Assembly (NCBI GenBank): GCA_964612295.1
Contig: CAZTDY010000006.1
Location: 35,546 to 99,545, forward strand
DNA length: 64,000 bases
DNA from: an uncultured bacterium
GTDB taxonomy: Bacteria; Eisenbacteria; RBG-16-71-46; CAIMUX01; WJJG01
Direction: 5' to 3'
The notes below the pieces were generated by a model that saw only the letters and a list, made by a program, of their open reading frames with translations, had not been told where the DNA came from and made no database searches. Positions within the stretch are counted from its first letter, which is position 1, and the number at the start of each line of letters is the position of its first letter. Shown one piece after another: positions 1 through 13,056 of the stretch. Both the position numbers and the translations under genes were made by a program.

Positions 1-163
1 TCTTTTTCGTGACCGCGACCACTCCTTTGAGTGTTGAAGAGACCCTCGCCGCCGCGCGGAGCTTAGCTCGCGACCTGGGCGAGGCCCAGACGATGCTCCT
101 CGATCTCCCCGAGTCCTATGAGCAGAGCACCTTTCTGGTCCGCAAGAAGGAGTCCATCCGATG
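1..163 (+). CDS. hypothetical protein, 3' end only (partial at window edge)
   Basis: Open frame from window start ends at TGA 161-163, overlapping the next ATG (ATGA coupling). No recognisable motifs. Confidence 0.3.
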
Positions 164-2569
164 AAGAACTTCGTTGGCGTGGCAGCGGCCCTGCTCGCCC
201 TGCTGATGAGCGTTCCGGCTTTCGCCGATGAAGGGGATGGCGGCTACGGCGTCCGGCGCTTCATGCTGGCGGTGGGCGCCAATGACGGCGGTGAGCGGCG
301 TGTTCTGCTTCGCTACGCGGTGTCCGACGCGGATGCCATGACCAAGGTCTTTCGCGAACTCGGGGGCGTGGCCGCCGAGGATCAGATTCAGCTGCGCGAC
401 CCGGACCCCTACACGTTTCTGCAGGCGATCGCGCAACTCGGAGCCCTGGCCCAGCAGGCCCGCCCGGACTATCGGCGGCTCGAGATCATCCTCTACTACT
501 CGGGACACTCCGATGATCAGGGTCTACTGCTCAAAGGACAACACCTCGGGTACTCGGTCCTTCGCGATGCGGTCAACCGGCTGCCGGCCGAAGTGCGGAT
601 CGTCATTCTCGACAGCTGTGCGTCCGGCGCGCTGACCCGGCTCAAGGGTGGGCAGCGCCGGCCCTCGTTCCTGCTCGATACGTCGTCTAACATGCAGGGC
701 CACGCCTATCTCACCTCCGCCTCGGATGACGAGTCGGCTCAGGAATCGGACCTGATCGGAGCCTCCTTCTTCACCCACGCCCTGATCTCCGGACTGCGGG
801 GAGGAGCCGACGCCACCCAGGACGAACGCATCACCCTCAACGAGGCCTACCAGTTTGCCTTCTACGAGACTCTGGCCCGTACCGAGGGAACGCAAACCGG
901 CGCCCAGCACCCGGCCTACGACATCCAGATGGCCGGCTCGGGCGATCTGGTCATGACGGATCTTCGGGGACGCTCCGCCGGGTTGGTTCTCGGCGACGAC
1001 CTCACCGGCCGCCTGCGCATTCGCGACGCGCAGAATCAGCTGGTCGTCGAGCTGATGAAGCCACAAGGCCGGTCCGTTGAACTGGGACTCGAGCCGGGGG
1101 ACTACCGGGTCATCATCGATCGGGGAGGCGTATACTTCAGCAAGGACGTGACCCTGATCGACGGTGATCTGGCGCTGGTGAGCGGCGAGGATCTGGAGCT
1201 GATCGCCACGGAGCTGACCGTGGCGCGAGGTGACGCGGGCCTCAGCGACGAGGAGCGGCTGCGGGAATCCTACGAAAAGAAGGTCCGCCACTGGCGCGAG
1301 CCGGAAGGTGGATTCATCTTCCCCCGTTTCTCCGGGAGCCTCTGGCCCGGTCTGTCCACAAATGGTGCGGATGAGAAACGCGCGATCAGCGAGGTCTCAC
1401 TCAACCTGACCCTCGGACGAACCGGAGGGGTCAAGGGACTCGAGCTGGGCCTTCTCGGCAACAGTGATCTGTACGATGTGACCGGATGCCAGATCGCCGG
1501 CGCCATGAACATGGTTGAGGGGAGCGTGGCGGCGTGCCAGGTGGCCGGTCTGCTCAACTCGGTCATGGGCGACGTGAAGCATCTGCAGCTTGCGGGGCTC
1601 GTCAACACGGTGAATGGAAAGGTGAGCGGGGTCCAGGGTTCAAGCGTCTTGAACTTCACCAAGGGCGGGCTACGGGGCGTGCAGTTGGGGCTCATTGACA
1701 TCGTCGTCGGCGACCTTGCGGGGGTCCAGCTCAGCGGTTGGATCGGCCTGGCTCGAGGCAATGCCGACGGGTGCCTTCAGATGTCGGGCTGGGCGAACTA
1801 TGTGGGCGGGGACTTCAAGGGGCTGCAATGGTCGGGCGCGGTCAACGCGGTCCTCGGTGAAGGATCGTTGGGCCAATTCGCCAGTGCAGCAAACTACGTG
1901 CGCGGGCGACTGGTTGGATTTCAGGCCACCGGAGGAGTCAATCTGGCACGTGAGATCGACGGTTGTCAGCTTGGAACGCTCAATCTCGCCGAACGGGCGC
2001 ACGGGGCGCAGCTCGGCGTCGTCAATATCGCGAGAAACGTCAAGGGACTGCAATTCGGATTGGTCAACGTGGCCGAGACCATGGACGGCGCTCCCGTCGG
2101 CGTGATCAACTACGCGCGCGACGGACAGCAGCGTCTCCAGCTCTGGACCAGCGACACCGCCGAGGGTACCGTCGCCCTCAAGCTCGGCAATCGAAACGCC
2201 TACTCGCTCCTGGCCTTCGGCAGCCAGGAACTCGGCCGCGATGATCGCATGTTCATTGGCTTCGGGTTGGGTGGTGAGTTCAACCACACCGAGCGCGTCT
2301 TCACGACCGCCGACCTGATGGCCTACCATATCCTCGAGGACGGTGAGTGGGGCGAGGGTGTCCATCTGCTGGCGAAGGCCCGGATCGGCCTCGGATTTCG
2401 CGTCGCCGATCGGCTGGCTGTGGTGGGGGGCGCGACCCTCAACAACTACCTGTCGAAGCGGCACGACGGCGAGGGGCTGGCCCACGGCACCTGGGGCGAC
2501 GAGTACGACGAGAAGGAAAACCTCTGGGCAAAGGCTTGGCCAGGGTTCTTCGTGGGCTTGCAGTTCTAG
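161..2569 (+). CDS. secreted caspase-like (peptidase C14) protein with C-terminal Gly/Asn-rich ~17-aa repeats and OMP-like C-terminal Phe
   Basis: N-terminal signal peptide MKNFVGVAAALLALLMSVPAFA. Caspase His (YYSGHS) and Cys (LDSCASGA) dyad motifs. About 13 tandem repeats of the form QxxGxxNxxxGxxxG(V/L). Ends ...FFVGLQF (terminal Phe as in outer-membrane beta-barrels). Confidence 0.7.
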   Translation: MKNFVGVAAALLALLMSVPAFADEGDGGYGVRRFMLAVGANDGGERRVLLRYAVSDADAMTKVFRELGGVAAEDQIQLRDPDPYTFLQAIAQLGALAQQARPDYRRLEIILYYSGHSDDQGLLLKGQHLGYSVLRDAVNRLPAEVRIVILDSCASGALTRLKGGQRRPSFLLDTSSNMQGHAYLTSASDDESAQESDLIGASFFTHALISGLRGGADATQDERITLNEAYQFAFYETLARTEGTQTGAQHPAYDIQMAGSGDLVMTDLRGRSAGLVLGDDLTGRLRIRDAQNQLVVELMKPQGRSVELGLEPGDYRVIIDRGGVYFSKDVTLIDGDLALVSGEDLELIATELTVARGDAGLSDEERLRESYEKKVRHWREPEGGFIFPRFSGSLWPGLSTNGADEKRAISEVSLNLTLGRTGGVKGLELGLLGNSDLYDVTGCQIAGAMNMVEGSVAACQVAGLLNSVMGDVKHLQLAGLVNTVNGKVSGVQGSSVLNFTKGGLRGVQLGLIDIVVGDLAGVQLSGWIGLARGNADGCLQMSGWANYVGGDFKGLQWSGAVNAVLGEGSLGQFASAANYVRGRLVGFQATGGVNLAREIDGCQLGTLNLAERAHGAQLGVVNIARNVKGLQFGLVNVAETMDGAPVGVINYARDGQQRLQLWTSDTAEGTVALKLGNRNAYSLLAFGSQELGRDDRMFIGFGLGGEFNHTERVFTTADLMAYHILEDGEWGEGVHLLAKARIGLGFRVADRLAVVGGATLNNYLSKRHDGEGLAHGTWGDEYDEKENLWAKAWPGFFVGLQF

Positions 2570-2580
2570 AGATCCGTTTC

Positions 2581-3165
2581 TTACGGACCCAGACGGAAAT
2601 CCTTCGGCATGATACGTGCCGGAATCCCCAACGCCACCCGGTCGCTCTCGACGTCCCGGAGGACCACCGAATTTGGCCCCACGGAGACGTGATCACCCAA
2701 CAGGATGGGCCCCATGACCTTGCTGCCCGATCCCGCCCACAGGTAGTCGCCGATCACCGGTTCCCCCTCACCGATCTCTCCATTGCTCACGACGGCCGAG
2801 CACTCGCAGAAGTGGGCATTGCTGCCGATGCGCACATGGGGGCCGATGTGGACGGCGGTCGGATGGAGAATCATCAGCCCGGGGCCGATGATCGCGTTGT
2901 GCGAAATCTCGGCGCCGGTCACCAGGTGGCACCAGAACTGGAAGAACTTCCCAAAAAAACCGCAGTGATGTCGGCACAGATGGCGGGATAGCCGATACAT
3001 GAACGTGGCGTGGAACCCAAGGCAGGTCAGGGCGAGCAGGGTGGTCTTCCACCGTCTCATGTCGGAGCGAATAAGCGCCCGAAGTCCCAGCCGGTCGTAG
3101 GCGTCGTACTTCCCGAGCAGGTCATCGCTCAGTTCGCGCGCACCTGTGCCGTTGTGATCGTCCAT
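2581..3165 (-). CDS. serine O-acetyltransferase-like hexapeptide-repeat acyltransferase (CysE/EpsC family)
   Basis: Left-handed beta-helix hexapeptide repeats (HPTAVHIGPHVRIGSNAHF...). N-terminal region typical of SAT-family enzymes found in polysaccharide loci. Start overlaps stop of upstream gene. Confidence 0.7.
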   Translation of the reverse strand: MDDHNGTGARELSDDLLGKYDAYDRLGLRALIRSDMRRWKTTLLALTCLGFHATFMYRLSRHLCRHHCGFFGKFFQFWCHLVTGAEISHNAIIGPGLMILHPTAVHIGPHVRIGSNAHFCECSAVVSNGEIGEGEPVIGDYLWAGSGSKVMGPILLGDHVSVGPNSVVLRDVESDRVALGIPARIMPKDFRLGP

Positions 3166-4080
3166 TACCGGTCCATCCCCCGGGATTCGTCCGGGGATTC
3201 ATCCCAGAGCTGCGCCAGGAAGACCAGAAAGTGAGCCGCGATGATCCGTTGGCCCAATTCGTTCAGGTGGTACCCATCGCGCGAGTATTCTGGGATTAGA
3301 GCATGGCCTGTCCGGCCCTCTTCTTCGTACGTGCAGCGTGATCCATCCGGATAGGTCGACTGAAGCCGGCCGAGGTCAAAGAACGGCTCCTGTTCACCGT
3401 AACGGGCCAGGAGCGCCGAGCTGTAATCGTCGCGCGCGAGATTGTCGCGCCGCGGATCGTGGCCCTTGATGAGTCGCTTCACCACCCGTCTCAAGGTCTG
3501 CTTCGTGGTGGTGAGCGGCTCGGAGACGTGGACAATCAGAAGATCTGGGTGGGCCTGCCGAATGCGGTCCACCGTGCTCTCGTACCGGCCGAGCAGCTCG
3601 GCGGTATTCGTCTTGGCAGTGACATCCAGAAAGCACAGTTTCAGTGCGGCAGCATCGAGCGCCTCCCCTGCAGGGGAGATCAGGTATTGCTCGAACGCAT
3701 CGCACTTGCCCAGCGGGTCGTAGTTCTCCCCGATCCAGGAGTGCGACAGGTAGCCACGGGTCGGGTCGGCGACATCGGGGCGTCTCACGACCTGGATTTG
3801 AATCTCGGGATAATCGCGGGTGATGTCGGCGATGCCGTTCAGCATGTCCAGGCCGACCGACTGATGGGCGAAGTAGATTCTCTTCTGGGCCAGCGTCTTC
3901 CACTGGTCGGCCGTCACCTGCTCCAGGATGGCGCCGGTTGGATCCGAGAGCGTGGGGGTGTCCATTGAAGTGCAGCCGAATCCGCCCAGCGCGAGGAGGC
4001 TAATCAGCAACCGGCAGACGCGCGCTCCCGCCGGCAGCCCGCAAAGGCTGAGCGCAGACTCGGTCCCGACAAGCGAGGTG
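3165..4080 (-). CDS. SGNH/GDSL-like hydrolase lipoprotein (start uncertain)
   Basis: Lipobox LLALGGFGC. C-terminal DGYHLN resembles the SGNH catalytic D-x-x-H. Six-frame ORF extends to 4184 but that would overlap the ACP gene by ~100 nt, so an internal start (e.g. TTG near 4010) is likely. Confidence 0.45.
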
Positions 4081-4326
4081 CTACGCCACCTTACGTTCAA
4101 TGAACGCCACCAGCCGGTCGACGGAGTCGAGGTTGTCGGGAACCAACTCGTTGTCAGCAATGGCAACGCCATAGGTCTCTTCAATGTACGCGACGAGTTC
4201 TAGGACACCGATCGAATCGAGAACGCCCATCTCGAGAAGCGACCCCGAGTCCGGCAGCAAATCGGTTTCTTGGCCCATCATGAAATTGTCGGTGATGAAC
4301 TCTCTGATCTGGGCACGAATATCCAT
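4081..4326 (-). CDS. acyl carrier protein (phosphopantetheine-binding)
   Basis: LLEMGVLDSIGVLELV with conserved DS(I/L) phosphopantetheine attachment serine. About 80 aa from MDIRAQIREF... GGAGAGG RBS 6 nt upstream of that ATG. Confidence 0.75.
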   Translation of the reverse strand: MDIRAQIREFITDNFMMGQETDLLPDSGSLLEMGVLDSIGVLELVAYIEETYGVAIADNELVPDNLDSVDRLVAFIERKVA

Positions 4327-4425
4327 CCACACCTCTCCTGCACTGACCGCCAATGCTGCCATTTAGGGAGCGAGGATCGCTCACTCCTGTTATCGGCCGG
4401 TCAGCCACCAAGTTGAGTATGCGTT

Positions 4426-6456
4426 TCAGAGAGGATCCGACGCCCCTCGGGGGCTCTGGGAGCCCACTCGCCCCGAGCGGGTGTCGTGCCAGACGGCCAG
4501 CTCATGCTCGGCCGGCGGCTCCGGCGGGCGGAAATCCTGAACGAATTGCTGCGCAAGCAGCTGCGTCGACAGGATCCCCACGAAGGACATGTTGTCGCGG
4601 AAGGACAGATGGGCCTTGGAGCGGCGGCAGCACTTCTCTCGCAGCTTACTCACCGCCCCGGCCGCGAATAGACCGGTGCGGGTGAGCGCCACCTCTGACA
4701 GCATTTCAGCGACATAGGCCGGGGGATTCTCGCAGAAGAAGGCGTTCGAATCGGGGGCCATGTAAGGTTGTTTCACGCGGTTGCGAATCTCCGGGGGCAC
4801 TTCTTCGACCATCGCCCGCTTCAGGACGGCCTTCTCGTTCAGGCCGCGCAGCTTGAGCCAGGGCGGGATCCGGGCGCCCAGCTCGACGACCCGGTAGTCG
4901 AGGAATGGGTAGCGCCCCTCCACGGAGTTGGCCATCGATACGCGGTCCCCCTGGGACGACAACAGGTAGCCGGAAAGAAGCGATTTCGCCTCGAGGTACT
5001 GCGCCCGCGAGAGGTGATGCCAACGATCGAAGTCCGGCGGAAGATGGCGCCCGAACACCTCGACCGAGGGATGACCGAGCACCGCCGCCTTGGTGTCTTC
5101 GCTGAAGAACTGCTTCAGTTTGGTGGCGGTGCTGATTCTCGGCATGTGCGAGAAGTGGTAGGCGTCTGTCTCAGACAGCCCCACCCGGTAGAACTCCTCC
5201 AGGTAGAATTGCGCCCGGGCGGGCGAGAGGGGCAGGGTTGGGTAGAGCTTCTTGAGCAGGAGCGGTCTCCAACTCGACTCCGGCTGCCGGGACCAGAACT
5301 TGCGGATGAGCGTTTCCTTGAAGATGTCGTAGCCGCCCAGAATCTCGTCCGCACCCTCGCCGGTCAGCACGACCTTGAAGTCGCTTTGGCGCACGAGACC
5401 GGAGAGCACCAAGAGTGGCGTGGGGGCTGTTCGGATGATCGGCTTTTCCGTGTGCCACACGACCCGCGGGAAGCTCTCGGCGATGTCCCGGTGGGCGCAC
5501 CGAACCTCATGGTGTCTCGTGCCCAATCGCTCGACCATCTGCCTTTGATAGGCCGATTCATCGAAGGCCCGGTCATCGAACGAGATGGAGAAGGTCTCCA
5601 GAGGCGTGTCGGTGAAGTGGCGAATCATCGCCGTGGTGGCGGCCGAGTCCAATCCCCCCGATAGGTAGGCTCCCACAGGAACATCCGCCCTCAGGCGCAG
5701 ACGCACCGCATCCACGAGCAGGGCGTGGAGTTCTTCAGCCCAGGAGTCCATCGAGCGGGAAGTGTCGTATTCGACGGGAAACTCCATCTCCCACCAGCGA
5801 TGGTGGGTGAGGTTGCCGTCCTTGATTTCGAGATAGGTGCCGGCCTCGAGTTCGCAAATCCCCTCGAAAGCGGTCCGGGGGGGCGCTGTCGTCCACCAGG
5901 TGAAGATCTCGTCGAGCCCCTTGGGATCCAGACGGCGCACAACGTCCGGATCGCAGAAGATCGCCTTGATCTCTGACGCGAAGACAAACCTCCCGCCGTG
6001 GAGGCTGTAGAACAGAGGCCTGATCCCCAGACGATCCCGGGCCAGGAAGAGGCGTTTGTCTCTTCGATGGTAGACGGCGAAGGCGAACTGGCCGTTGAAG
6101 CGCCTCAGACAGTCGGCGCCCCACTCTTCATACGCGTGGAGAACCACTTCGGTATCGGACTTCGTGCGAAAACGGTGGCCGAGGTTCTGTAGCTCCTGCC
6201 GCAGTTCGACGTAGTTGAAGAGCTCACCGTTGTAGGTGATCCACAGCGTGGCGTCTTCATTGCATAGAGGCTGAGAGCCGGAAGAGAGGTCGATGATCGA
6301 CAGACGCGCGAGCCCGAGCGCACAGGTGTCATCGAGATAGGCGCCCGATTCGTCGGGCCCCCGGTGACGCATGATGCGCACCATGCGGCGGATGAGCTCA
6401 TCCCCCGGCAGCGTGGCCGAGGGATTCATGCGATAGTATCCGGCAATGGCACACAT
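4426..6456 (-). CDS. asnB: asparagine synthetase family (glutamine-hydrolysing) amidotransferase
   Basis: N-terminal MCAIAGYY (Cys2 glutaminase nucleophile). PP-loop SGGLDS. 676 aa, typical AsnB-like length. Confidence 0.8.
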   Translation of the reverse strand: MCAIAGYYRMNPSATLPGDELIRRMVRIMRHRGPDESGAYLDDTCALGLARLSIIDLSSGSQPLCNEDATLWITYNGELFNYVELRQELQNLGHRFRTKSDTEVVLHAYEEWGADCLRRFNGQFAFAVYHRRDKRLFLARDRLGIRPLFYSLHGGRFVFASEIKAIFCDPDVVRRLDPKGLDEIFTWWTTAPPRTAFEGICELEAGTYLEIKDGNLTHHRWWEMEFPVEYDTSRSMDSWAEELHALLVDAVRLRLRADVPVGAYLSGGLDSAATTAMIRHFTDTPLETFSISFDDRAFDESAYQRQMVERLGTRHHEVRCAHRDIAESFPRVVWHTEKPIIRTAPTPLLVLSGLVRQSDFKVVLTGEGADEILGGYDIFKETLIRKFWSRQPESSWRPLLLKKLYPTLPLSPARAQFYLEEFYRVGLSETDAYHFSHMPRISTATKLKQFFSEDTKAAVLGHPSVEVFGRHLPPDFDRWHHLSRAQYLEAKSLLSGYLLSSQGDRVSMANSVEGRYPFLDYRVVELGARIPPWLKLRGLNEKAVLKRAMVEEVPPEIRNRVKQPYMAPDSNAFFCENPPAYVAEMLSEVALTRTGLFAAGAVSKLREKCCRRSKAHLSFRDNMSFVGILSTQLLAQQFVQDFRPPEPPAEHELAVWHDTRSGRVGSQSPRGASDPL

Positions 6457-6467
6457 GGATCATCACC

Positions 6468-8000
6468 TCAAGCGGGTCGCTCGATTTTCCCCGATGCGGA
6501 CGTGGGCAGGGAGGAGACGATCTCGACCTGCTGCGGCACGAAGATCTCCTCCAGATGCGCCCGGCAATGGCAGAGGATGTCGTCGGCGGTCAAACTGACC
6601 CCCGTCCGCAAGACGACCTCCGCGCGGATCGCGTTTCCAAGAATGTCATCGGGCACGGGGGTCACCCGGGCCGCGACGACCTCCTCCAATTCATGGAGGA
6701 CGGCCTCGATCTCCTTGGGTGCCACGAGTTCTCCCCTGGATTTGAACAGGTCGTCCAGACGACCCTGGAAATAGAGGAAGCCGGCTTCATCGATGCGAAA
6801 GATGTCCCCGGTGTGAAGGACCCGTTCCCATGGATAGAGGCCGGCCCTGAGCACATTGGCCGTGGCCTCGGGGTCGTTGTAGTAGCCCTGCATGACGCAC
6901 GCGCCCCGCACGACGAGCTCGCCGGTGGCGTCCCGGTCGCGCAGGTGCCCGTCGCCATCGACCACGTAGACCTCGGTGTTGGGCATCGGAATGCCGACCG
7001 AATCGGGTCGCTCATCGATGAGATGAGGGGGAAGGAAGGCCACGCGCTTACATTCGGTGAGGCCGTACATCGAATAGATCGAAGCCTTGGGAAACATCGC
7101 CCGCAACCGGGGGATAAAGGCCGGAGGCAGGGCGGCGCCCGTATTCGTGATGTATCGAACCGAGGAGAGGTCAATGTCCTCGGGTATGTCGAGGTTGAGC
7201 AAGAGCGACATCATCGTCGGCACGCAGGGCAGGCCGGTCACACCCCGCGAGGCGATGTCCTGCACCAGCTGGAATGGGTACCCGAATCCTGCTTTCAGGA
7301 TCAACGTGCCCCCGAAGGCGATGGTCATCAACAGCTGGTAGAGGCCGTAGTCGAAGGAAAGCGGAAGAACGTTCAACACGATGTCACCTGGGTGGTTCCC
7401 CAGATAGGTCGTGATCGAGTTGGCCGCGGTGACCATGTTCCGGTGGGTGAGCATGACACCCTTGGGATGACCTGTGCTCCCGGAGGTGTAGATGATCGCC
7501 GCCAGGTCCAGATCGACTTGGCGCAATGCCGAAAGGGGTTGTTCTTGGGAAAGAATCGCCTCGAAATAGGAGTGCTCGGCCGCTCTGGGGCCCTGGGGAG
7601 CCGGTCCGGTCACGATCGTCCGCTGCCTGAGCGCCCGGTCGCACAGAGGGGCGATCGTCTTCAGATGCAAAGGGTCAGTGATCACAAAGCTCGGTTTGCA
7701 CTGCTCGATGATGTAGCGGAGCTTGTTCGACTTGATGGCAGGGTTGATGATCGAGAAGACGCCTCCCGCCATCAGCGTTGCGTACAGCGAGACGACCGCC
7801 TCCGAAGAATTCGGCAGGTAGATAACGACACGCCCTCCGCGCATCAGGTGGTTGCGGCGCAGATAGGCGGCCAGGGTCCCGGCGTGCCCTTTGAGTTGAC
7901 GATAGGTGAGCGTCGTATTCCCGCAGTGCAGGGCGGTTTTGTCCGGGTGACGTTGGACCGATCGAGTCAGGAACTCATGCAGCAGGTTTACGACGCGCAT
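6468..8000 (-). CDS. AMP-dependent acyl-CoA/acyl-ACP ligase (adenylate-forming enzyme)
   Basis: AMP-binding signature IYTSGSTGHPKGVMLTHRNM. 510 aa. Adjacent to ACP. Confidence 0.8.
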   Translation of the reverse strand: MRVVNLLHEFLTRSVQRHPDKTALHCGNTTLTYRQLKGHAGTLAAYLRRNHLMRGGRVVIYLPNSSEAVVSLYATLMAGGVFSIINPAIKSNKLRYIIEQCKPSFVITDPLHLKTIAPLCDRALRQRTIVTGPAPQGPRAAEHSYFEAILSQEQPLSALRQVDLDLAAIIYTSGSTGHPKGVMLTHRNMVTAANSITTYLGNHPGDIVLNVLPLSFDYGLYQLLMTIAFGGTLILKAGFGYPFQLVQDIASRGVTGLPCVPTMMSLLLNLDIPEDIDLSSVRYITNTGAALPPAFIPRLRAMFPKASIYSMYGLTECKRVAFLPPHLIDERPDSVGIPMPNTEVYVVDGDGHLRDRDATGELVVRGACVMQGYYNDPEATANVLRAGLYPWERVLHTGDIFRIDEAGFLYFQGRLDDLFKSRGELVAPKEIEAVLHELEEVVAARVTPVPDDILGNAIRAEVVLRTGVSLTADDILCHCRAHLEEIFVPQQVEIVSSLPTSASGKIERPA

Positions 8001-8028
8001 CGACTTCGATTCCCTCAGTTCGTTTGGG

Positions 8029-9027
8029 CTAGGCGACCTTGACCGGGCCCATCCGCAGATGTTCGGTGGCTACGATCTTCCGGTGAATGTTTGCGTAGGC
8101 CCGTTCGACCTGTTCTTCGCTGAGGTCGAGAACCGCGGCCGCCTCCCCCGGCGGCACATCGTTGTCCATGGCCAGCCAGAGCATGTCCATGAGATAGAAA
8201 TCCAGACCGAAGAAGAACTCCTCCTGCGACACCTCCGCCGAGTAGGTGTCCGTGGTCGGCACCCGGCTCAGGATCTCCTGGGGCACATCGAGGTATTCGG
8301 CCAACTGGAAGACCTGGGTCTTGAACAGGTGAGCGATCGGCTGAAGGTCGACTCCGCCGTCGCCGTGTTTGACGAAGAAGCCCTGGAGGTGCTCGTCCTT
8401 GTTGCCCGTGCCGATGACGGCCCAGTTACGCAATTCGGCATGGTAGTAGAGCATGGTCATACGCAGCCGCTGCTTGAGATTCGAGGCGGCCACCACGCCA
8501 AGGTAGGGCCTCGGTGGCAGCCGCTTGCATTGCACATTGCCGGCCGGATCCTCGATGGTGATGTTGAAGAAGTTGAAGGTCTGCTTGTCCAGGATCTTGC
8601 CGGGATTGGTGATCTTGACCTTGTAGCTGTCGTCGAACTCGGGAAAGACGAGGCGGATCGCGTCATTGCGACGCTGGTAGCAACCCAGGGCCGCAAGCGC
8701 CCCTGAGATATCTTCCGTGAATGTCTTGAAACCATAGTGATCGGCGAGCACTTGGGCCAGATCGATACTCTCGGGGGCCGAGTCGGTTTCCGGCATCATG
8801 ATGCCCACGACTCGTTCGGGACCGAAGGCGCGCACACACAAGGCGGCCACAACGGAAGAGTCGATACCGCCTGAGATTCCCAGCACGGTTCCCTGCTTCC
8901 TCAATGGACCCCGGAGCTGCTCACGCAACAGGTTGCAGATCTCCTCGGTGGTCGCTTCGACATCGATCTTGAGGCTGTCTTTCTGAAACAACATCACAAC
9001 TCCTACCCGGGTATGTCCGGTACCCAC
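8029..9027 (-). CDS. nadE: NAD+ synthetase-like PP-loop ATP pyrophosphatase/amidotransferase
   Basis: LGISGGIDSSVVAAL PP-loop. TGNKDEHLQGFFVKHGDGGVDLQPIAHLFKTQV matches NadE core. True start may be the internal Met near 8994. Confidence 0.6.
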   Translation of the reverse strand: MGTGHTRVGVVMLFQKDSLKIDVEATTEEICNLLREQLRGPLRKQGTVLGISGGIDSSVVAALCVRAFGPERVVGIMMPETDSAPESIDLAQVLADHYGFKTFTEDISGALAALGCYQRRNDAIRLVFPEFDDSYKVKITNPGKILDKQTFNFFNITIEDPAGNVQCKRLPPRPYLGVVAASNLKQRLRMTMLYYHAELRNWAVIGTGNKDEHLQGFFVKHGDGGVDLQPIAHLFKTQVFQLAEYLDVPQEILSRVPTTDTYSAEVSQEEFFFGLDFYLMDMLWLAMDNDVPPGEAAAVLDLSEEQVERAYANIHRKIVATEHLRMGPVKVA

Positions 9028-9209
9028 AGCAATGCCTCCATCACGCTAAGTTTCGGCAGCGGCGCGGGATACCTTGACGGGCAACCGGGGGCGGGCTCGC
9101 GGCTGCAGTAGGGTCCGCCGCGGGTTCGCCAGGGAGGGGAAAGCGCCCAACCAATTGAAATAGAATAGGTTGGCAGGCCGACGGTCATGCGGAGCGACTC
9201 GCTGGATCT

Positions 9210-10151
9210 CTATTCGATGATCTTCTTGACCCGGTAGTCGAGGACCTCGCGCGAGTGACAGTAGATGATCAGCTCCCCGATGAGCCCGACCGAGAAGAGG
9301 TGGAATCCGAAGACCAGAAGCAGGATTCCCATGAGCAGGAAGGGCCGATCAGCCAGTCCGACCCCATAGAAGAGACGCAGGACTCCCAGGTAGGCGATGA
9401 TCAGCACGCCCGGCAAGCCGAGGCCGACCCCGATCAGACCGAAGAACCGGAGCGGTTTCTTGGTGAACTTGACCAGGAAGAACAGCGTCAGGATGTCCAG
9501 GAGCCGCCTGACATAGGCTCCGGCGTTGACGACGCGAACCTGCGTGTCCTCTTTCCGCTGCCCGACCTTGATCTCGCGAACATTCACCCCGCGCTGAAAG
9601 GCGAAGATAGGAAGAAACCGATGGAGATCACCGTAGAGCACAAACTCGGAGAGGACCTTGCGGCTGATGAGACGCATGCCTGAAGTAATGTCGCGGAACG
9701 ACGTGTTGGTCAGCTTGCGGATGACGTAGTGGTAGATGCTCGCCTGAATCCGGTTGATGAGCGGGTCCTTGCGCGGGTATCGACGCGTGATGACCATGTC
9801 GTGCCCGGCGTTGTAGGCGTCGAACACCTTGTGCAGGTCCTTGGGCTCGATCTGAATATAGGAGGCCAGCGTGAGGATCAACTCGCCCTTGGCTTGACGG
9901 AAGCCTTCCATCAGAGCCATCGACTCTCCGAAGCTCCTCGCGAACTGGATGATTCGGATCGGCTCGCCCTCGCTCTGCAGCTTCTTGAGCGCATCCACCG
10001 CGAGCGGGAAAGCACCGTCAACGACGAAGATGAATTCGAAACTCTGTTTCATCTCGCGCAGTTCAGCGGCGTAGATGCTGTAGAGCTTGTCCATCCGATC
10101 GTGTCGTTCGCTGATCGGAACAACCACGCTGACTTGCGGCGTATCGCTCAC
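9210..10151 (-). CDS. GT2 family polyprenyl-phosphate glycosyltransferase (DPM1/ArnC/GtrB-like) with C-terminal TM helices
   Basis: VSVVVPI...FVVDG GT-A motif region. Two C-terminal hydrophobic helices typical of ArnC/GtrB-like enzymes. Confidence 0.7.
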   Translation of the reverse strand: MSDTPQVSVVVPISERHDRMDKLYSIYAAELREMKQSFEFIFVVDGAFPLAVDALKKLQSEGEPIRIIQFARSFGESMALMEGFRQAKGELILTLASYIQIEPKDLHKVFDAYNAGHDMVITRRYPRKDPLINRIQASIYHYVIRKLTNTSFRDITSGMRLISRKVLSEFVLYGDLHRFLPIFAFQRGVNVREIKVGQRKEDTQVRVVNAGAYVRRLLDILTLFFLVKFTKKPLRFFGLIGVGLGLPGVLIIAYLGVLRLFYGVGLADRPFLLMGILLLVFGFHLFSVGLIGELIIYCHSREVLDYRVKKIIE

Positions 10152-10202
10152 GAGCTCAGGTCCCTCTTCTTTCGTTGTCCCCAGACCGCGCCCTTCTGCG
10201 GG

Positions 10203-11162
10203 CTAGATCATCGTAACCGTTCTCTTCTTCTTCAGACGCACAAAGAACTCACCCAGCAAACCCCAGGAGACGAGGGTCATCGTCAGTGAAAACAGGAGAA
10301 GACTCGAGGTCAAGAACATGAGCCCCACCTCTCCCTGCATGTATAGAACCACCGAGGCCAGCGCGAAGGCCAGCCCTCCGACGAAGGACGCGAAGCCCAG
10401 ACCGGCAAACCAGAACAGGGGCCGGTAGTAGAAGTGAATGAGCATCCGGATGGTGATCAGGTCGAGGAGCACCTTCCAGATCCGGGTGAGGCCGTACTTG
10501 GATTGCCCGTGTTCGCGTGGGCGATGGTTGACGACGATTTCACCCACGCGTGCCCCAACCGAAGTCGCCAGGGCCGGAATGAAACGGTGCATATCCGAAT
10601 AGAGACTCACGGTTTTCACGACCGAGCTCCGATAGGCCTTCAGGGAACACCCGTTGTCGTGGATGGCGACGCTGGCGATCTGCGAGATCATCCAGTTTGC
10701 GATCCGCGAGGGGAAGGTGCGCGTGACCGCATTATCCTGGCGATCCTTGCGCCAGCCACTCACCACATCGTAGCCCTCGTTCAGCTTCTCCAAGAGCCGG
10801 GGGATGTCGTGCGGGTCGTTCTGCAGATCCCCGTCCATCGAGATGACGATTTCCCCGCGGGCCAGATCAAAGCCCGCCTGCATGGCCGGAGTCTGACCGA
10901 AGTTGCGCGAGAAACAGACGACACGGATCGTGCCCTGCCCGGCAGGCTGGGCCTTCCTCTCGTCCACGATCGCCTGCAGTCGCGCGAGGGTCTCGTCGCG
11001 GCTGCCGTCATTGACGACGATGACCTCGAAAGGCCGATCGACCGACTCCAGGACCTCGCAGAGTTCATCACAGAGCGGTCCCACGTTCTCTTCTTCGTCA
11101 AACACGGGTATGACGATGGAAAGATAGGGCTCCATGACGACACTCCTCGTTCCACAGGGCAC
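10203..11162 (-). CDS. GT2 family polyprenyl-phosphate glycosyltransferase (ArnC/DPM1-like)
   Basis: LSIVIPVFDEEENV...EVIVVNDGSRDET (DxD-type GT-A motifs). C-terminal membrane helices. Confidence 0.75.
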   Translation of the reverse strand: MPCGTRSVVMEPYLSIVIPVFDEEENVGPLCDELCEVLESVDRPFEVIVVNDGSRDETLARLQAIVDERKAQPAGQGTIRVVCFSRNFGQTPAMQAGFDLARGEIVISMDGDLQNDPHDIPRLLEKLNEGYDVVSGWRKDRQDNAVTRTFPSRIANWMISQIASVAIHDNGCSLKAYRSSVVKTVSLYSDMHRFIPALATSVGARVGEIVVNHRPREHGQSKYGLTRIWKVLLDLITIRMLIHFYYRPLFWFAGLGFASFVGGLAFALASVVLYMQGEVGLMFLTSSLLLFSLTMTLVSWGLLGEFFVRLKKKRTVTMI

Positions 11163-11232
11163 AGACCTCGCCGTGAGCGTACCCTCTCCATGGATCGGTT
11201 ACACGGGTAAGTTCGGCATTCGAAACAAGATA

Positions 11233-13056
11233 TCAAGGAATCTCTTCTAGCGAATATACCCTGACCTCGGGTCCGGGATGAAGGCCTTCTTTGCCGGTGA
11301 AGGTCTTCACGAGACGTCCGTAGCTGAACAGGTCCCGATAGAAAGCGGCGAAGGAGGGGAATCTCTCGGGGGTGGAGGTATTTCGGTCCATGCAGGACAA
11401 ATACGCGTAGCTGTGGACGATGGCGTAGTCGAAGCCCTGCTGAACGTAGGACTCGTACGAGTTGACCCCCACCGGCTTCAGGGGGTTGGCCATATCCTGA
11501 TCGTAGTCGGTGGTCAGCTCGTGGACACCTGACTGCTCCTCGACCCGTCGCCACCAGGGGAATCGAATCTCCACGATGTCGTAGGTGACGCCCTGTTTGG
11601 AGGCCTCGATCTGATAGTCGAGGTAGCGCTGGTAGTGGGTGGTGAACTGCCCCGAGCCGGTCGACTCCGTCGCCGCCGGGTATACGCGGTGGATCGCCGT
11701 TTCGCTCAGGTTCAACCGGGGGCCGTTTTCGCTCACGAGGAGCCGGTTCCCGGCTGGGATGTTCGCTTCGATCCACACCTTGGCCAGCTGGCGTGTGTTC
11801 GTCCGAGAGACGAAAGTCCCTCGATCGAGGATTGCCCAGGTCGGCCAGGCCAGCAAGAGCCCCAGACCCACCAACACAATGCGGCGACTCAGCTCCGAGC
11901 GCTCCCAGAGGAGTGACAGGAGGTGCCCCCCCGTCAGGGCAAGGAAGGCGTAGAAAGGTAGCTGGTGCCGGGGTTCGGCATAGCCGGGGTAGCTGACCAC
12001 GGAGAGGCCCACAAAGACGATCGGATAGACCAGGAAGATCAGCCGAGTTCGGTCCAGACGCCTGAGAAAGACGAGCAGGCCGACGAGCGAAATGACCGCA
12101 ATCGGGAGTCCCATGCCGTGCGTGGCGAACAGCTCCTGCGCATACTCCGCGAAGCCCCCGCTGATATCGGTCGGTTGCGAGATGAAGTCGCTCGGCTGCG
12201 CTGCAGGCGGTGGGCCGAAGAGCGCCGCAACCTTGTCGATCAGATGGTTGACGTTGTAGAAGGTCGCCGTCCGTCCCAGGGGATCGAGGAAGTTGTAGGG
12301 CGCGCAGACGAAGTAGGTGCCGACGAACATGAGGAACGCCGCCCCCAGCCACCGAAGCTTGCCGACGATTTTGGCCGGGGCACCGGTGCAGGCGTCCTTT
12401 CCCCGCCACACGATTGCGACGAAGATCGGTGCGAGCATTGCCATGGGGTAGTACTTCGTGGCGGCTCCCATGCCGGCTGCCGCCGAGGCCAGCAGCAGCG
12501 GTTTCACTCCGCCTCGTTCCAGGTGGCGGAAGAGGAAGAACAGGGACAGGAAGACGAAGAAGCTCGCAGGAATGTCCGCTTTGACTTCCTGGCAGATCAC
12601 CACATGGGCATAGGTCAGGGAGAGCAGGATTGCCGCAAAGGCCCCAGCCCGCTTTCCCAGGTACCGATTGCCGAACCGATAGACCAGCCAGATCGTGGCG
12701 ATTCCAAATGCCATGGAGGTCAGCCGACCGATCAAATAGAACGGCCCCGGGTTTTGCACGAAGTAGACCGCGAACTCATCGACTGAGGTCCACATTCCAC
12801 CGACGAGCCCGATCAGGAAGAAGACCCCATACTCGGCAAACAGGAGGTACATGAGAAAGGCCGGCTTATGGAACCAGTGGGGGTTCAAGTCGAACGAGCC
12901 AAAGGACAGGGCCCGCATCACGAAGTGGTTTTCGTCCCCGAAGTAGGAGAATGGATAGTCATGCCAGAATCCGAGCAGACGCAAAAGAGTGGCACCCAGA
13001 AGGGTCGCTACCAGGATCAGCGCTGAGCGCCGGAGCGTTTCGTTATCTGCTTTCAT
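11233..13056 (-). CDS. GT-C fold glycosyltransferase (GT39/ArnT/PMT-like) with C-terminal periplasmic domain
   Basis: Polytopic N-terminal half with YFGDEN (DE motif of first periplasmic loop in GT-C enzymes). 607 aa. Confidence 0.7.
   Translation of the reverse strand: MKADNETLRRSALILVATLLGATLLRLLGFWHDYPFSYFGDENHFVMRALSFGSFDLNPHWFHKPAFLMYLLFAEYGVFFLIGLVGGMWTSVDEFAVYFVQNPGPFYLIGRLTSMAFGIATIWLVYRFGNRYLGKRAGAFAAILLSLTYAHVVICQEVKADIPASFFVFLSLFFLFRHLERGGVKPLLLASAAAGMGAATKYYPMAMLAPIFVAIVWRGKDACTGAPAKIVGKLRWLGAAFLMFVGTYFVCAPYNFLDPLGRTATFYNVNHLIDKVAALFGPPPAAQPSDFISQPTDISGGFAEYAQELFATHGMGLPIAVISLVGLLVFLRRLDRTRLIFLVYPIVFVGLSVVSYPGYAEPRHQLPFYAFLALTGGHLLSLLWERSELSRRIVLVGLGLLLAWPTWAILDRGTFVSRTNTRQLAKVWIEANIPAGNRLLVSENGPRLNLSETAIHRVYPAATESTGSGQFTTHYQRYLDYQIEASKQGVTYDIVEIRFPWWRRVEEQSGVHELTTDYDQDMANPLKPVGVNSYESYVQQGFDYAIVHSYAYLSCMDRNTSTPERFPSFAAFYRDLFSYGRLVKTFTGKEGLHPGPEVRVYSLEEIP

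What the first reader, a model, noticed from the sequence alone, without database searches (positions are those of the whole stretch)
161..2569. Secreted caspase-fold protease fused to a long Gly/Asn-rich repeat array with an OMP-like C-terminus
A clear C14 His/Cys dyad (YYSGHS ... LDSCASGA) follows a Sec signal peptide. The C-terminal half contains about 13 consecutive ~17-residue repeats (QxxGxxNxxxGxxxGV). The protein ends in ...FFVGLQF, a terminal Phe typical of outer-membrane beta-barrels. A periplasmic or outer-membrane caspase homologue with this repeat architecture is not a described family to my knowledge.
Basis: partly seen in the sequence, partly recalled or inferred. Interest (0 to 1): 0.6.

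Follow-up and report, generated by a model that had tools for sequence, protein, structure and literature searches.

The report
Outer-membrane caspase paired with anti-sigma factor
This gene encodes a secreted caspase-like protease on a repeat stalk with a predicted small outer-membrane barrel, and it is the third gene of a widespread, uncharacterised sigma / anti-sigma / protease operon in which the protease probably cuts the anti-sigma factor to switch on transcription.

Summary
ORF 161..2569(+) encodes an 802-aa protein with:
- a signal peptide;
- a Peptidase_C14 domain, with His116 invariant in the 48-sequence family alignment and Cys153 present in all 80 loci checked;
- a beta-sandwich;
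- 16 (not 13) repeats of 14-17 aa, most often 16;
- a predicted small outer-membrane barrel ending in Phe.

The interpretation needs correcting in three ways.
1. The repeats match a curated family (NCBIfam LA_2272_repeat). The whole repeat+barrel module recurs in thousands of proteins.
2. The full architecture is a large family (1834 hits, many phyla) annotated only as "caspase family protein".
3. The key context lies off the window's left edge. The gene overlaps (ATGA) an ActD-like single-pass anti-sigma gene that follows an ECF sigma gene. This order holds in 63 of 78 loci.

Relatives of the module carry a periplasmic STN signalling domain in place of the caspase, in the same sigma-FecR operon position. 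Both the protease linker and the anti-sigma juxtamembrane linker carry an invariant T-R-x-K-G.

Best reading: an outer-membrane-tethered periplasmic metacaspase-like protease acts as the dedicated site-1 protease of its anti-sigma factor. This is inferred, not shown. In Myxococcus-type genomes the pair sits in an act-operon-like cluster.

The parts
3..164 (+). 3' end (last 53 codons plus stop) of the ActD-like single-pass anti-sigma gene. The gene runs off the left edge of the window, and its TGA overlaps the caspase ATG (ATGA).
   Evidence: Translation is identical to the C-terminus of the 268-aa protein on the identical contig L004. Homologues are named ActD or ActD-like. AlphaFold model.
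147..152 (+). Shine-Dalgarno AAGGAG, 8 nt upstream of the ATG
   Evidence: Sequence read directly
161..2569 (+). Complete ORF, 802 aa plus stop: secreted metacaspase-like protease with an LA_2272-repeat stalk and a C-terminal barrel
161..226 (+). Sec signal peptide, aa 1-22, predicted cleavage AFA|DE
   Evidence: Sequence. Conserved signal-like N-termini in 48 homologues.
248..940 (+). Peptidase C14 (metacaspase-like) domain, aa ~30-260. Asp56 at 326-328, His116 at 506-508, Asp151 at 611-613, Cys153 at 617-619.
   Evidence: Pfam PF00656 above cutoff. Profile alignment to metacaspase structures 7qp0 and 6w8s aligns SGH and DSCxSG. Foldseek hits to Yca1 and AtMC4/9. Invariant residues.
635..652 (+). 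T159-R-L-K-G-G164, an invariant RxKGG motif in the disordered loop after the catalytic Cys. Candidate autoprocessing or pseudosubstrate site.
   Evidence: R 77/80, K 80/80, G 80/80, G 78/80. pLDDT below 50 for aa 154-191.
944..1210 (+). Seven-strand beta-sandwich domain, aa 262-350
   Evidence: AlphaFold secondary structure and pLDDT 74-86. Conserved in the family.
1211..1303 (+). Low-confidence charged linker, aa 351-381
   Evidence: pLDDT below 50 for aa 353-382
1304..1390 (+). N-terminal cap of the conserved C-terminal module, aa 382-410
   Evidence: hhalign homology with STN-type relative P0271 begins here
1391..2125 (+). 16 LA_2272-type repeats (14-17 aa, consensus G-x-Q-x-x-G-x-x-N-x-x-x-G-x-x-x), aa 411-655. 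Predicted as regular short beta-strands and read here as a beta-solenoid stalk.
   Evidence: NCBIfam NF047436 52.7 bits against cutoff 25. Periodicity z=5.9. pLDDT about 95 with a 7+4-residue strand pattern.
2126..2566 (+). Predicted small (about 8-stranded) outer-membrane beta-barrel, aa 656-802, ending WPGFFVGLQF
   Evidence: Foldseek matches to NspA 1p4t, OmpA, Opa60, OprF-N and designed barrel 6x9z, with TM-score 0.45-0.67 relative to the target. Conserved C-terminal WPGxxxGxQ/R-hydrophobic.

Best explanation
The gene is the third member of a conserved three-gene envelope-signalling operon: ECF sigma factor, then an ActD-like single-pass anti-sigma factor, then this protein.

Proposed path of the protein:
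1. It is exported by Sec.
2. Its C-terminal barrel inserts in the outer membrane.
3. The 16-repeat stalk and beta-sandwich hold the metacaspase-like head in the periplasm.

Proposed mechanism:
1. The head has the two acidic S1-pocket residues of metacaspases (Asp56, Asp151), so it should cut after Arg or Lys.
2. It cleaves the anti-sigma factor at the invariant T-R-x-K|G. This site lies at the junction between the disordered juxtamembrane linker and the periplasmic Ig-like domain.
3. Cleavage removes that domain. A site-2 protease then finishes the job and the sigma factor is released.
4. The released sigma factor activates its own promoter, GGT(G/A)ACA-N15-GGTGTT.
5. The same T-R-x-K-G-G in the protease's own post-Cys loop would serve as an autoprocessing or autoinhibitory pseudosubstrate site.

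Shown: the domain architecture, operon conservation, gene overlap, shared motif, promoter motif, and homology of the module to STN-bearing relatives. Inferred: the topology, cleavage of the anti-sigma factor, the specificity, and the signal sensed.
For: - **Operon.** On the identical contig L004 and the 88%-identical L001-L003, the order is ECF sigma (159 aa; TIGR02937 60.7 bits), a 268-aa protein, then the caspase.
- **Conservation.** Across 78 species-level loci from Myxococcota, Fermentibacteria, Eiseniibacteriota, Spirochaetota, Latescibacterota and Gammaproteobacteria, the ActD-like gene is immediately upstream in 73, and sigma plus ActD-like in 63.
- **Coupling.** Stop/start overlap is -4 nt in 53/79 pairs and -1 nt in 14/79.
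- **Partner anatomy.** The AlphaFold model has pLDDT 86.6: cytoplasmic helical bundle 10-76, transmembrane helix 88-101, disordered 103-123, Ig-like domain 129-263. There is a weak anti-sigma HMM hit, NF052375 at 35 bits. Member P0170 carries H-x3-C-x2-C.
- **Shared motif.** In ActD-like proteins: R 64/75, K 75/75, G 75/75. In the caspase: R 77/80, K 80/80, G 80/80. The only local alignment hhalign reports between the two families is these two segments.
- **Metacaspase-type pocket.** The profile aligns LryAasDA with metacaspase LRGCINDA, and DSCaSG with DSCHSG. D56 is invariant in the 48-sequence alignment. D151 is invariant there and present in 80/80 loci.
- **Periplasmic head.** The same repeat+barrel module (hhalign E=7.8e-44) carries an STN domain in relatives that sit in sigma-FecR-X operons, 3 of 3 examined.
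- **Natural variant.** In P0168/L090 the sigma factor is fused directly to the transmembrane helix, HRTKGG and the ActD-type periplasmic domain, followed by a caspase gene of this family. Release of that sigma factor would require proteolysis.
- **Autoregulatory promoter.** It is conserved in 37 loci.
Against: - No biochemical evidence exists. I could not run a complex prediction or view model coordinates.
- The TRxKG coincidence was noticed post hoc, and the hhalign alignment is not significant (probability 0.15%).
- An RxKGG this strictly invariant at a fixed distance from the catalytic Cys could be a structural or substrate-groove element and not a cleavage site.
- K124-G125 could simply start the Ig-like fold.
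- The anti-sigma assignment rests on a sub-threshold HMM hit plus predicted structure.
- In about 10 Myxococcaceae/Archangiaceae loci the pair occurs without an adjacent sigma gene. So the pair can function in another regulatory setting.
- The p10-like half of the caspase domain is poorly modelled (pLDDT below 50 for 154-191 and 242-261).
Confidence: 0.45

Rival explanations
1. Signalling by binding, not cutting. The outer-membrane-tethered head contacts the Ig-like periplasmic domain of the ActD-like protein, as the FecA STN domain contacts FecR. A different protease performs site-1 cleavage. The caspase's true substrates are other envelope proteins, and its RxKGG loop serves only for self-activation.
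For: The homologous module with a non-catalytic STN head sits in the same operon position. hhalign finds no significant similarity between the two motif regions. The ActD-like periplasmic domain is a well-folded, conserved Ig-like domain that could be a binding partner or inhibitor.
Against: The catalytic dyad and both acidic pocket residues are invariant, so catalysis is under selection. The only invariant residues in the ActD-like linker form a basic-residue motif that matches the protease's own loop. The sigma-TM-ActD fusion requires proteolytic release.
Confidence: 0.2
2. Regulon effector. The protease is simply an output of the sigma factor: an envelope quality-control or remodelling protease induced under stress. 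It is co-transcribed because ECF operons often carry their targets, and it has no role in signal perception.
For: The gene is co-transcribed downstream of an apparently autoregulated promoter. No other promoter copies occur in the 64-kb window, so the operon itself may be the main target.
Against: Translational coupling with the anti-sigma gene is tight, 67/79 overlaps. The pair persists even where the sigma gene is absent. The STN-type paralogues in the same position are signalling parts, not effectors.
Confidence: 0.13
3. Surface-exposed autotransporter-like protease or adhesin. The C-terminal barrel exports the repeat stalk and caspase head to the cell surface, where it processes surface or extracellular proteins, for example signalling proteins in myxobacteria.
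For: NCBIfam names the repeat 'surface repeat-containing protein'. The N-terminal passenger plus C-terminal barrel layout resembles type Va autotransporters. In Myxococcus the homologous pair lies in the act operon, which controls the cell-surface C-signal.
Against: The barrel matches small 8-stranded barrels, not 12-stranded autotransporter barrels, and there is no Pfam autotransporter hit. STN-headed relatives must keep their head in the periplasm to reach FecR. The conserved partner's folded domain is periplasmic.
Confidence: 0.08
4. Cell-death or anti-phage caspase effector, as in other bacterial caspase and CHAT systems.
For: The closest NCBIfam caspase subfamily is the EACC1-associated type found in conflict systems. 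The DdvS/DdvA ECF pair controls a defence island (PMC11506125).
Against: The EACC1-type model scores 64 bits against a cutoff of 140. There are no PADLOC hits for any of the three proteins, apart from a marginal unrelated CARF-model match on sigma at E=0.0066. No defence genes are conserved nearby. The protein is exported, away from cytoplasmic targets.
Confidence: 0.04

Closest known systems
Myxococcus xanthus DdvS/DdvA (ECF sigma plus a transmembrane anti-sigma with a periplasmic TPR-CHAT caspase-family domain; PMC11506125)
   Same: An ECF sigma/anti-sigma pair is associated with a periplasmic clan-CD (caspase-family) His-Cys module. That module is proposed, but not shown, to act as the site-1 protease on a flexible juxtamembrane linker before RseP cleavage.
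   Different: In DdvA the CHAT module is fused to the anti-sigma factor itself and would cut in trans within a dimer. Here the protease is a separate C14/metacaspase-type protein tethered to the outer membrane by a repeat stalk and barrel, and the anti-sigma periplasmic domain is a small Ig-like fold. DdvA-like proteins are reported as nearly restricted to Myxococcota, whereas this module spans many phyla.
FecI/FecR/FecA-type cell-surface signalling (ECF sigma, FecR anti-sigma, outer-membrane protein with a periplasmic STN signalling domain)
   Same: The three-part logic is the same: sigma, single-pass anti-sigma, and an outer-membrane beta-barrel protein whose N-terminal periplasmic head talks to the anti-sigma factor. 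Direct relatives of this protein's C-terminal module carry an STN head and sit in sigma-FecR operons.
   Different: The head is a protease and not an STN domain. The anti-sigma factor is ActD-like and not FecR. The barrel is small, not a 22-stranded TonB-dependent transporter with a plug, so no transport function is expected.
Myxococcus xanthus act operon (actA-actD plus a fifth gene; Gronewold & Kaiser 2001/2002, cited in PMC3824092)
   Same: Homologues of the window's upstream partner are annotated ActD or ActD-like. In Myxococcus, Pyxidicoccus and Citreicoccus loci the order is a GGDEF regulator, a sigma54 activator, a Rossmann-GNAT acetyltransferase (MXAN_3215 is this type, PMC8556138), the ActD-like gene, then a full-length homologue of this protein.
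   Different: The window lineage has an ECF sigma gene in place of actA/B/C. The primary act papers are not held, so the actC/actD timing phenotypes and the identity of the fifth gene rest on my own recollection and on Kaiser's statement of '5 co-transcribed genes'.
Metacaspases / orthocaspases (Peptidase C14B; e.g. Yca1 4f6o, AtMC4 6w8s, C. glabrata MCA1 7qp0)
   Same: The SGH and DSCxSG catalytic motifs are shared, as is an Asp two residues before the Cys and an Asp in the xxDA motif. Both Asp residues form the S1 pocket in metacaspases (that assignment is my own knowledge). The fold matches.
   Different: The E-values are weak (1.7e-3 to 4.6e-3). The His after the Cys is replaced by Ala or Ser. 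The protein is exported and membrane-anchored. The p10-like half is divergent and poorly modelled.
LA_2272 / VC2662 repeat proteins (NCBIfam NF047436, NF047437)
   Same: The same 14-17-aa GxQxxGxxN repeat, scoring above the repeat model's cutoff.
   Different: It is not an equivalog of VC2662 (41 bits against 140) or of the LA_2272 lipoprotein N-terminus (15 against 30). Those proteins lack a protease head. The only experimental note found is that VC2662 is enriched in a V. cholerae ompU mutant and its deletion gave no phenotype (PMC10865864).

Membership tests
Peptidase C14 (caspase/metacaspase, clan CD) | Pfam PF00656 match above the gathering score | tested here: met
   33.5 bits against 21.4, E=4.5e-8, aa 33-219
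Peptidase C14 (caspase/metacaspase, clan CD) | Catalytic His-Cys dyad in SGH and (D)xCxSG motifs, conserved in homologues | tested here: met
   H116 and C153 invariant in 48 sequences. C153 present in 80/80 loci. Motifs align to metacaspase structures.
Peptidase C14 (caspase/metacaspase, clan CD) | Caspase-hemoglobinase fold | tested here: met
   Foldseek top hits are Yca1 4f6p/4f6o, CgMCA1, AtMC4/9 and caspase-2, with probability 1.0 and E from 4.6e-3. The second half of the domain is low confidence.
Peptidase C14 (caspase/metacaspase, clan CD) | Proteolytic activity | not testable with these tools
   Needs an enzyme assay
Metacaspase/orthocaspase subtype (cleaves after Arg or Lys) | Acidic S1 pocket: an Asp two residues before the Cys and an Asp in the N-terminal xxDA motif | tested here: met
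   D151 and D56 are invariant, D151 also in 80/80 loci, and both align to the DSC and NDA motifs of metacaspases. The pocket assignment comes from my own knowledge of TbMCA2 and Yca1 structures.
Metacaspase/orthocaspase subtype (cleaves after Arg or Lys) | Cleavage after Arg or Lys | not testable with these tools
   Needs biochemistry
NCBIfam NF047832 caspase, EACC1-associated type | Score at or above the curated cutoff (140) | tested here: not met
   64.4 bits. It is the nearest subfamily only.
LA_2272 repeat family (NF047436) | Repeat model score at or above the cutoff (25) | tested here: met
   52.7 bits, E=2.7e-14. 16 units.
VC2662 family (NF047437) / LA_2272 lipoprotein (NF047435) | Equivalog scores at or above 140 and 30 respectively, and a lipobox | tested here: not met
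   41.1 and 15.1 bits. No Cys in the signal peptide.
Small (8-stranded) outer-membrane beta-barrel | Signal peptide plus a C-terminal strand ending in an aromatic or hydrophobic residue | tested here: met
   AFA|DE signal. Ends GLQF. Family ends in I, F or L in 39/48, with a conserved WPGxxxGxQ/R.
Small (8-stranded) outer-membrane beta-barrel | Barrel fold | tested here: inconclusive
Type Va autotransporter | 12-stranded autotransporter barrel domain (Pfam Autotransporter) | tested here: not met
   No Pfam hit. Structural matches are to 8-stranded barrels.
ECF sigma / anti-sigma regulated-proteolysis module | Adjacent ECF sigma gene | tested here: met
   L004 and L001-L003. 63/78 loci. The sigma gene itself lies outside the window.
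ECF sigma / anti-sigma regulated-proteolysis module | Single-pass anti-sigma factor with an N-terminal sigma-binding helical domain | tested here: inconclusive
   NF052375 scores 35 bits, below its cutoff of 100. AlphaFold predicts a helical bundle plus one transmembrane helix. An HxxxCxxC motif is present in P0170. No binding test is possible.
ECF sigma / anti-sigma regulated-proteolysis module | Site-1 cleavage of the anti-sigma periplasmic region by the encoded protease | not testable with these tools
   Only indirect evidence: the shared TRxKG motif and the sigma-TM fusion variant.
M. xanthus act operon (ActD plus the fifth gene) | Homology of the partner to ActD and synteny with actA/actB/actC | tested here: inconclusive
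   Homology is met. Synteny with actABC is found only in Myxococcus-type loci. The window lineage has an ECF sigma gene instead.

The most novel reading that the evidence does not exclude
This would be the first dedicated, separately encoded caspase-family site-1 protease for an ECF anti-sigma factor. A rigid rod of about 16 turns would hang it from the outer membrane, so that cleavage at T-R-x-K|G depends on the geometry or integrity of the envelope, making it a trans-periplasmic 'ruler' sensor. The same ancient pair, rewired under sigma54 control, would be the ActD / fifth-gene part of the Myxococcus act operon. That would give a molecular handle on how C-signal timing is set.
Probability: 0.3. 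Interest if true: 0.8.

Novelty: new variant of a known kind. Interest (0 to 1): 0.62.

Why it matters
- **Signalling.** ECF sigma signalling is the third major mode of bacterial signal transduction. For most ECF groups the trigger protease is unknown. A self-contained operon that encodes its own outer-membrane-anchored caspase-type protease, with a candidate cleavage motif conserved in both enzyme and substrate, gives a directly testable mechanism.
- **Bacterial caspases.** It would extend the role of bacterial caspase homologues from cytoplasmic death and defence functions to periplasmic signal transduction.
- **The repeat module.** It assigns a role, as an outer-membrane tether for periplasmic signalling heads, to the very large uncharacterised LA_2272-repeat+barrel family (6263 cluster representatives).
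- **Myxococcus development.** It links a phylum-spanning module to the act operon of Myxococcus, whose actD and fifth gene have had no mechanism since 2001.

Tried and rejected
- **PDB sequence searches.** The full protein and aa 385-802 gave no hits.
- **PADLOC defence models.** No meaningful hits.
- **Apparent ActD-caspase gene fusion in L017.** Rejected as an assembly frameshift: the sequence goes out of frame and the caspase's own signal peptide reappears.
- **S41 (Prc-like) peptidase as a conserved fourth component.** Present only in the 88%-identical lineage L001-L003 within the 84 loci tested. Rejected as general.
- **Any other conserved downstream gene.** None beyond the close Myxococcus group.
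- **Regulon search.** The derived promoter motif gave 0 hits in the 64-kb window, against about 0-1 expected. Two DNA search attempts failed on pattern syntax.
- **Homology between the ActD-like Ig domain and the protease's beta-sandwich.** None. The beta-sandwich also did not align to the CarboxypepD_reg domain of STN-type relatives.
- **Literature.** No held paper describes actC, actD or the fifth gene product, or a caspase-linked ECF group. The main text of Casas-Pastor 2021 does not mention caspase and no supplements are held. PMC134796 is not held.
- **The ActD-like periplasmic domain against PDB.** Only generic Ig-like matches.
Full report
**1. What is at the coordinates**

ORF 161..2569(+) is real: 802 aa, ATG start. 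A Shine-Dalgarno AAGGAG lies at 147-152. The start codon overlaps the stop of an upstream same-strand ORF (ATGA) that runs off the left edge of the window.

The N-terminus MKNFVGVAAALLALLMSVPAFA|DEG is a Sec signal peptide without a lipobox. Pfam Peptidase_C14 passes its gathering score (33.5 against 21.4 bits, aa 33-219).

In a 48-sequence family alignment at roughly 38-88% identity to the query, His116 (YYSGHS) and Cys153 (LDSCASG) are invariant. In 80 genomic loci, Cys153 and Asp151 are present in 80/80.

A profile of the family aligns to the solved metacaspases 7qp0 and 6w8s over the SGH and DSCxSG motifs and over an xxDA motif. The AlphaFold model's N-terminal domain hits Yca1, AtMC4/9 and caspase-2. 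From my own knowledge of metacaspase structures, Asp56 and Asp151 correspond to the two acidic S1-pocket residues. That predicts cleavage after Arg or Lys, not after Asp.

**2. The repeats and the C-terminus**

The repeats are real but were miscounted. There are 16 units over aa 411-655. Unit lengths are 14-17 residues apart from a final 12-residue unit, and 16 is the most common length. Autocorrelation gives z=5.9 at lag 16, z=3.6 at lag 14 and nothing at lag 17.

The repeats do resolve into a curated family. NCBIfam LA_2272_repeat scores 52.7 bits against a cutoff of 25.

The last ~150 residues match small 8-stranded outer-membrane barrels: NspA, OmpA, Opa60, OprF-N and designed transmembrane barrels. 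TM-scores relative to the target are 0.45-0.67.

The terminal Phe is not a family constant. The last residue is I, F or L in 39/48. The final strand WPGxxxGxQ/R-hydrophobic is conserved.

Between the protease and the stalk lie a seven-strand beta-sandwich (aa 262-350) and a disordered charged linker.

**3. It is a large family, not a one-off**

The word-indexed search returned 1834 homologues. The best 120 are 688-864 aa, and nearly all cover 91-100% of the query (one covers 88%). Databases name them only 'caspase family protein' or 'hypothetical'.

A scan of one genome per species found at least 580 loci. They come from Myxococcota, Fermentibacteria, Eiseniibacteriota, Spirochaetota, Latescibacterota, Aminicenantes, Bradymonadales and Gammaproteobacteria.

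**4. The decisive context is just outside the window**

A contig identical to the window (L004) and contigs 88% identical (L001-L003) show the order: ECF sigma (159 aa), then a 268-aa protein, then this gene. The sigma factor hits Sigma70_r2/r4_2 and TIGR02937. The window holds only the last 53 codons of the 268-aa gene.

| Measure | Result |
|---|---|
| 268-aa homologue immediately upstream, same strand | 73 of 78 loci with enough upstream DNA |
| Sigma plus the 268-aa homologue both present | 63 of 78 |
| Stop/start overlap of 4 nt | 53 of 79 pairs |
| Stop/start overlap of 1 nt | 14 of 79 pairs |
| Other conserved neighbour | none |

A bipartite element, GGT(G/A)ACA-N15-(C)GGTGTT, lies about 35 nt upstream of the sigma start in 37 loci from several phyla. 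This fits an autoregulated ECF promoter. It does not recur in the 64-kb window.

**5. The partner protein**

Its AlphaFold model has mean pLDDT 86.6:

| Residues | Feature |
|---|---|
| 10-76 | N-terminal helical bundle |
| 88-101 | Transmembrane helix |
| 103-123 | Disordered linker |
| 129-263 | Ig-like periplasmic domain |

The periplasmic domain has no specific PDB relative.

The N-terminus carries the LERxALGELPP motif typical of anti-sigma domains. It has a weak anti-sigma HMM hit (35 bits, below cutoff). One member, P0170, has H-x3-C-x2-C.

Homologues are annotated ActD or ActD-like in Archangium and Myxococcus. In Myxococcus, Pyxidicoccus and Citreicoccus loci the pair is preceded by three genes instead of a sigma gene: a GGDEF protein, a sigma54 activator and a Rossmann-GNAT acetyltransferase. 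That is the act operon layout. MXAN_3215 is that acetyltransferase type (PMC8556138), and Kaiser describes the act operon as five co-transcribed genes controlling C-signal feedback (PMC3824092).

So the window gene is a homologue of the fifth act gene. The ancestral and widespread setting is an ECF sigma operon.

**6. Evidence for how it works**

(a) **The C-terminal module is a general device.** The C-terminal half alone (aa 385-802) hits 6263 cluster representatives. The module occurs alone, or behind other N-terminal domains. The main alternative head is an STN domain, sometimes with FecR_C-like hits, plus a CarboxypepD_reg-like domain. Homology covers the whole module, aa 382-802, at E=7.8e-44.

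STN is the periplasmic signalling domain that contacts FecR-type anti-sigma factors. All three STN-type relatives I looked up sit directly downstream of a FecR-type anti-sigma gene, the position this gene occupies. An ECF sigma gene is called just upstream in two of them; in the third the contig is short. One is followed by a TonB-dependent receptor that lacks its own STN. A head-less module has no sigma gene nearby.

This argues that the head domains, including the caspase, are periplasmic, and that the module tethers a signalling head to the outer membrane.

(b) **A shared motif.** In the ActD-like linker, the only invariant residues form [E/D]-x-[T/V/I]-R-x-K-G: R 64/75, K 75/75, G 75/75. 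They sit at the junction between the disordered linker and the Ig-like domain, about 20 residues from the membrane.

The protease's own disordered loop, 6-11 residues after the catalytic Cys, carries [T/A]-R-x-K-G-G: R 77/80, K 80/80, G 80/80, G 78/80. From my own knowledge, caspases are cut at a comparable position between the large and small subunits.

hhalign finds no homology between the two families, but its single reported local alignment is these two segments.

(c) **A natural variant.** In P0168/L090 the sigma factor is fused directly to the transmembrane helix, an HRTKGG motif and the ActD-type periplasmic domain. A caspase gene of this family follows with a 4-nt overlap and retains R-x-K-G-G. 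A covalently membrane-tethered sigma factor can only be freed by proteolysis.

**7. Best explanation and its limits**

I propose that an outer-membrane-tethered periplasmic metacaspase-like protease cleaves its ActD-like anti-sigma partner at TRxK|G. That would be a site-1 cut. Site-2 proteolysis and sigma release would follow, with positive autoregulation. The protease's own TRxKGG would serve for autoprocessing or autoinhibition.

| Claim | My confidence |
|---|---|
| The three genes form one signalling module | about 0.85 |
| The head is periplasmic and tethered to the outer membrane | about 0.65 |
| The anti-sigma factor is cleaved at the motif | about 0.4 |
| The full mechanism as stated | 0.45 |

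The motif coincidence was noticed post hoc. The anti-sigma assignment is sub-threshold by HMM. The barrel strand parity is unresolved. About ten Myxococcaceae/Archangiaceae loci lack an adjacent sigma gene. The signal sensed is unknown. An envelope-integrity or distance sensor is speculation.

**8. Comparison with known systems**

- **DdvS/DdvA of M. xanthus** is the closest mechanistic analogue. Its anti-sigma periplasmic TPR-CHAT module is proposed, but not shown, to be the site-1 protease (PMC11506125). Here the protease is a separate, outer-membrane-anchored C14 protein.
- **FecI/FecR/FecA cell-surface signalling** is the closest architectural analogue, with a catalytic head replacing STN.
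- **EACC1-type caspases, VC2662 equivalogs and autotransporters**: the protein does not meet their curated cutoffs or defining features, so it is not a member of these.
- **Defence systems**: no PADLOC system matched.
- **Literature**: I found no paper describing this family's function.

**9. Verdict**

The finding is best described as a new variant of ECF sigma/anti-sigma envelope signalling that uses a dedicated outer-membrane-tethered caspase-family protease. It is widespread, uncharacterised and directly testable.

Noticed in passing
window 2581-13056 (minus strand): A gene cluster convergent on the caspase gene, with only 11 nt between the two stop codons. It encodes an EpsC-like serine O-acetyltransferase, a 266-aa unknown, an acyl carrier protein, an asparagine-synthase-type amidotransferase (nearest special model XrtA/PEP-CTERM amidotransferase), an acyl-CoA ligase nearest the 'exosortase A-associated' model, an NAD synthase, glycosyltransferase family 2 genes and a PMT_2-type protein. 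All special-model scores are below the equivalog cutoffs. It looks like a polysaccharide or lipid modification locus.
   Followed up: partly
L001:12635-15601, L002:6698-9664, L003:12442-15408: In the 88%-identical relative, a 988-aa Peptidase_S41 protein (with a weak AhpC-TSA hit) is inserted between the caspase gene and the convergent cluster. It is absent from the window and from L004. The S41 association is not general.
   Followed up: yes
L085:3338-9591; L087; L088: 'Split' cell-surface signalling operons: ECF sigma, FecR, then a protein of STN (with or without CarboxypepD_reg) plus LA_2272 repeats plus a small barrel. In L085 this is followed by a TonB-dependent receptor that has CarboxypepD_reg and Plug but no STN of its own, then DUF4249. 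The STN signalling domain seems to have been moved onto a separate outer-membrane tether.
   Followed up: partly
L090:4165-5079 (P0168) and L090:5076-6926: An ECF sigma factor fused directly to a transmembrane helix, HRTKGG and the ActD-type periplasmic domain, with no anti-sigma helical domain. A 616-aa caspase of this family with fewer repeats follows. Seen on one contig; the protein cluster has four member sequences.
   Followed up: partly
L004:568-595 (outside the window, upstream of sigma) and 36 other loci: A conserved bipartite promoter-like element, GGT(G/A)ACA-N15-(C)GGTGTT, about 35 nt upstream of the sigma start codon across several phyla. I did not recognise it as the signature of a described ECF group, and it was not checked against the ECF classification.
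   Followed up: partly
L016, L018, L022, L027 (Archangium and Vitiosangium): The ActD-like plus caspase pair occurs with neither an adjacent ECF sigma gene nor actA/B/C homologues. Archangiaceae genomes carry several paralogous copies of the caspase. What controls these copies is unexplained.
   Followed up: partly
P0024, P0030, P0033, P0041, P0098, P0064 (family members): A subset of the family has a short conserved extension after the last barrel strand (...GLQYEPRWGKLNIH...EPKWGSLNSWW). In these the barrel's final strand is not C-terminal.
   Followed up: no
L001:1878-8503 and L004:3-413 (upstream of the sigma gene): Neighbouring genes encode large secreted proteins with FlgD_ig / type IX secretion C-terminal sorting domains, and a Peptidase_S8. 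This suggests the source organism uses a type IX secretion system (FCB-group-like, or a Fermentibacteria/Eiseniibacteriota relative). The window GC content is about 60-65%.
   Followed up: no
P0306 (866 aa): A protein with an LA_2272-type lipoprotein N-terminus, ankyrin repeats and many LA_2272 repeats running to the C-terminus (166 bits). This is another head type on the same repeat scaffold.
   Followed up: no
L017:5155-8364: A single long ORF appears to join the ActD-like and caspase genes. The junction is out-of-frame sequence from an indel in a long-read assembly, not a real fusion.
   Followed up: yes
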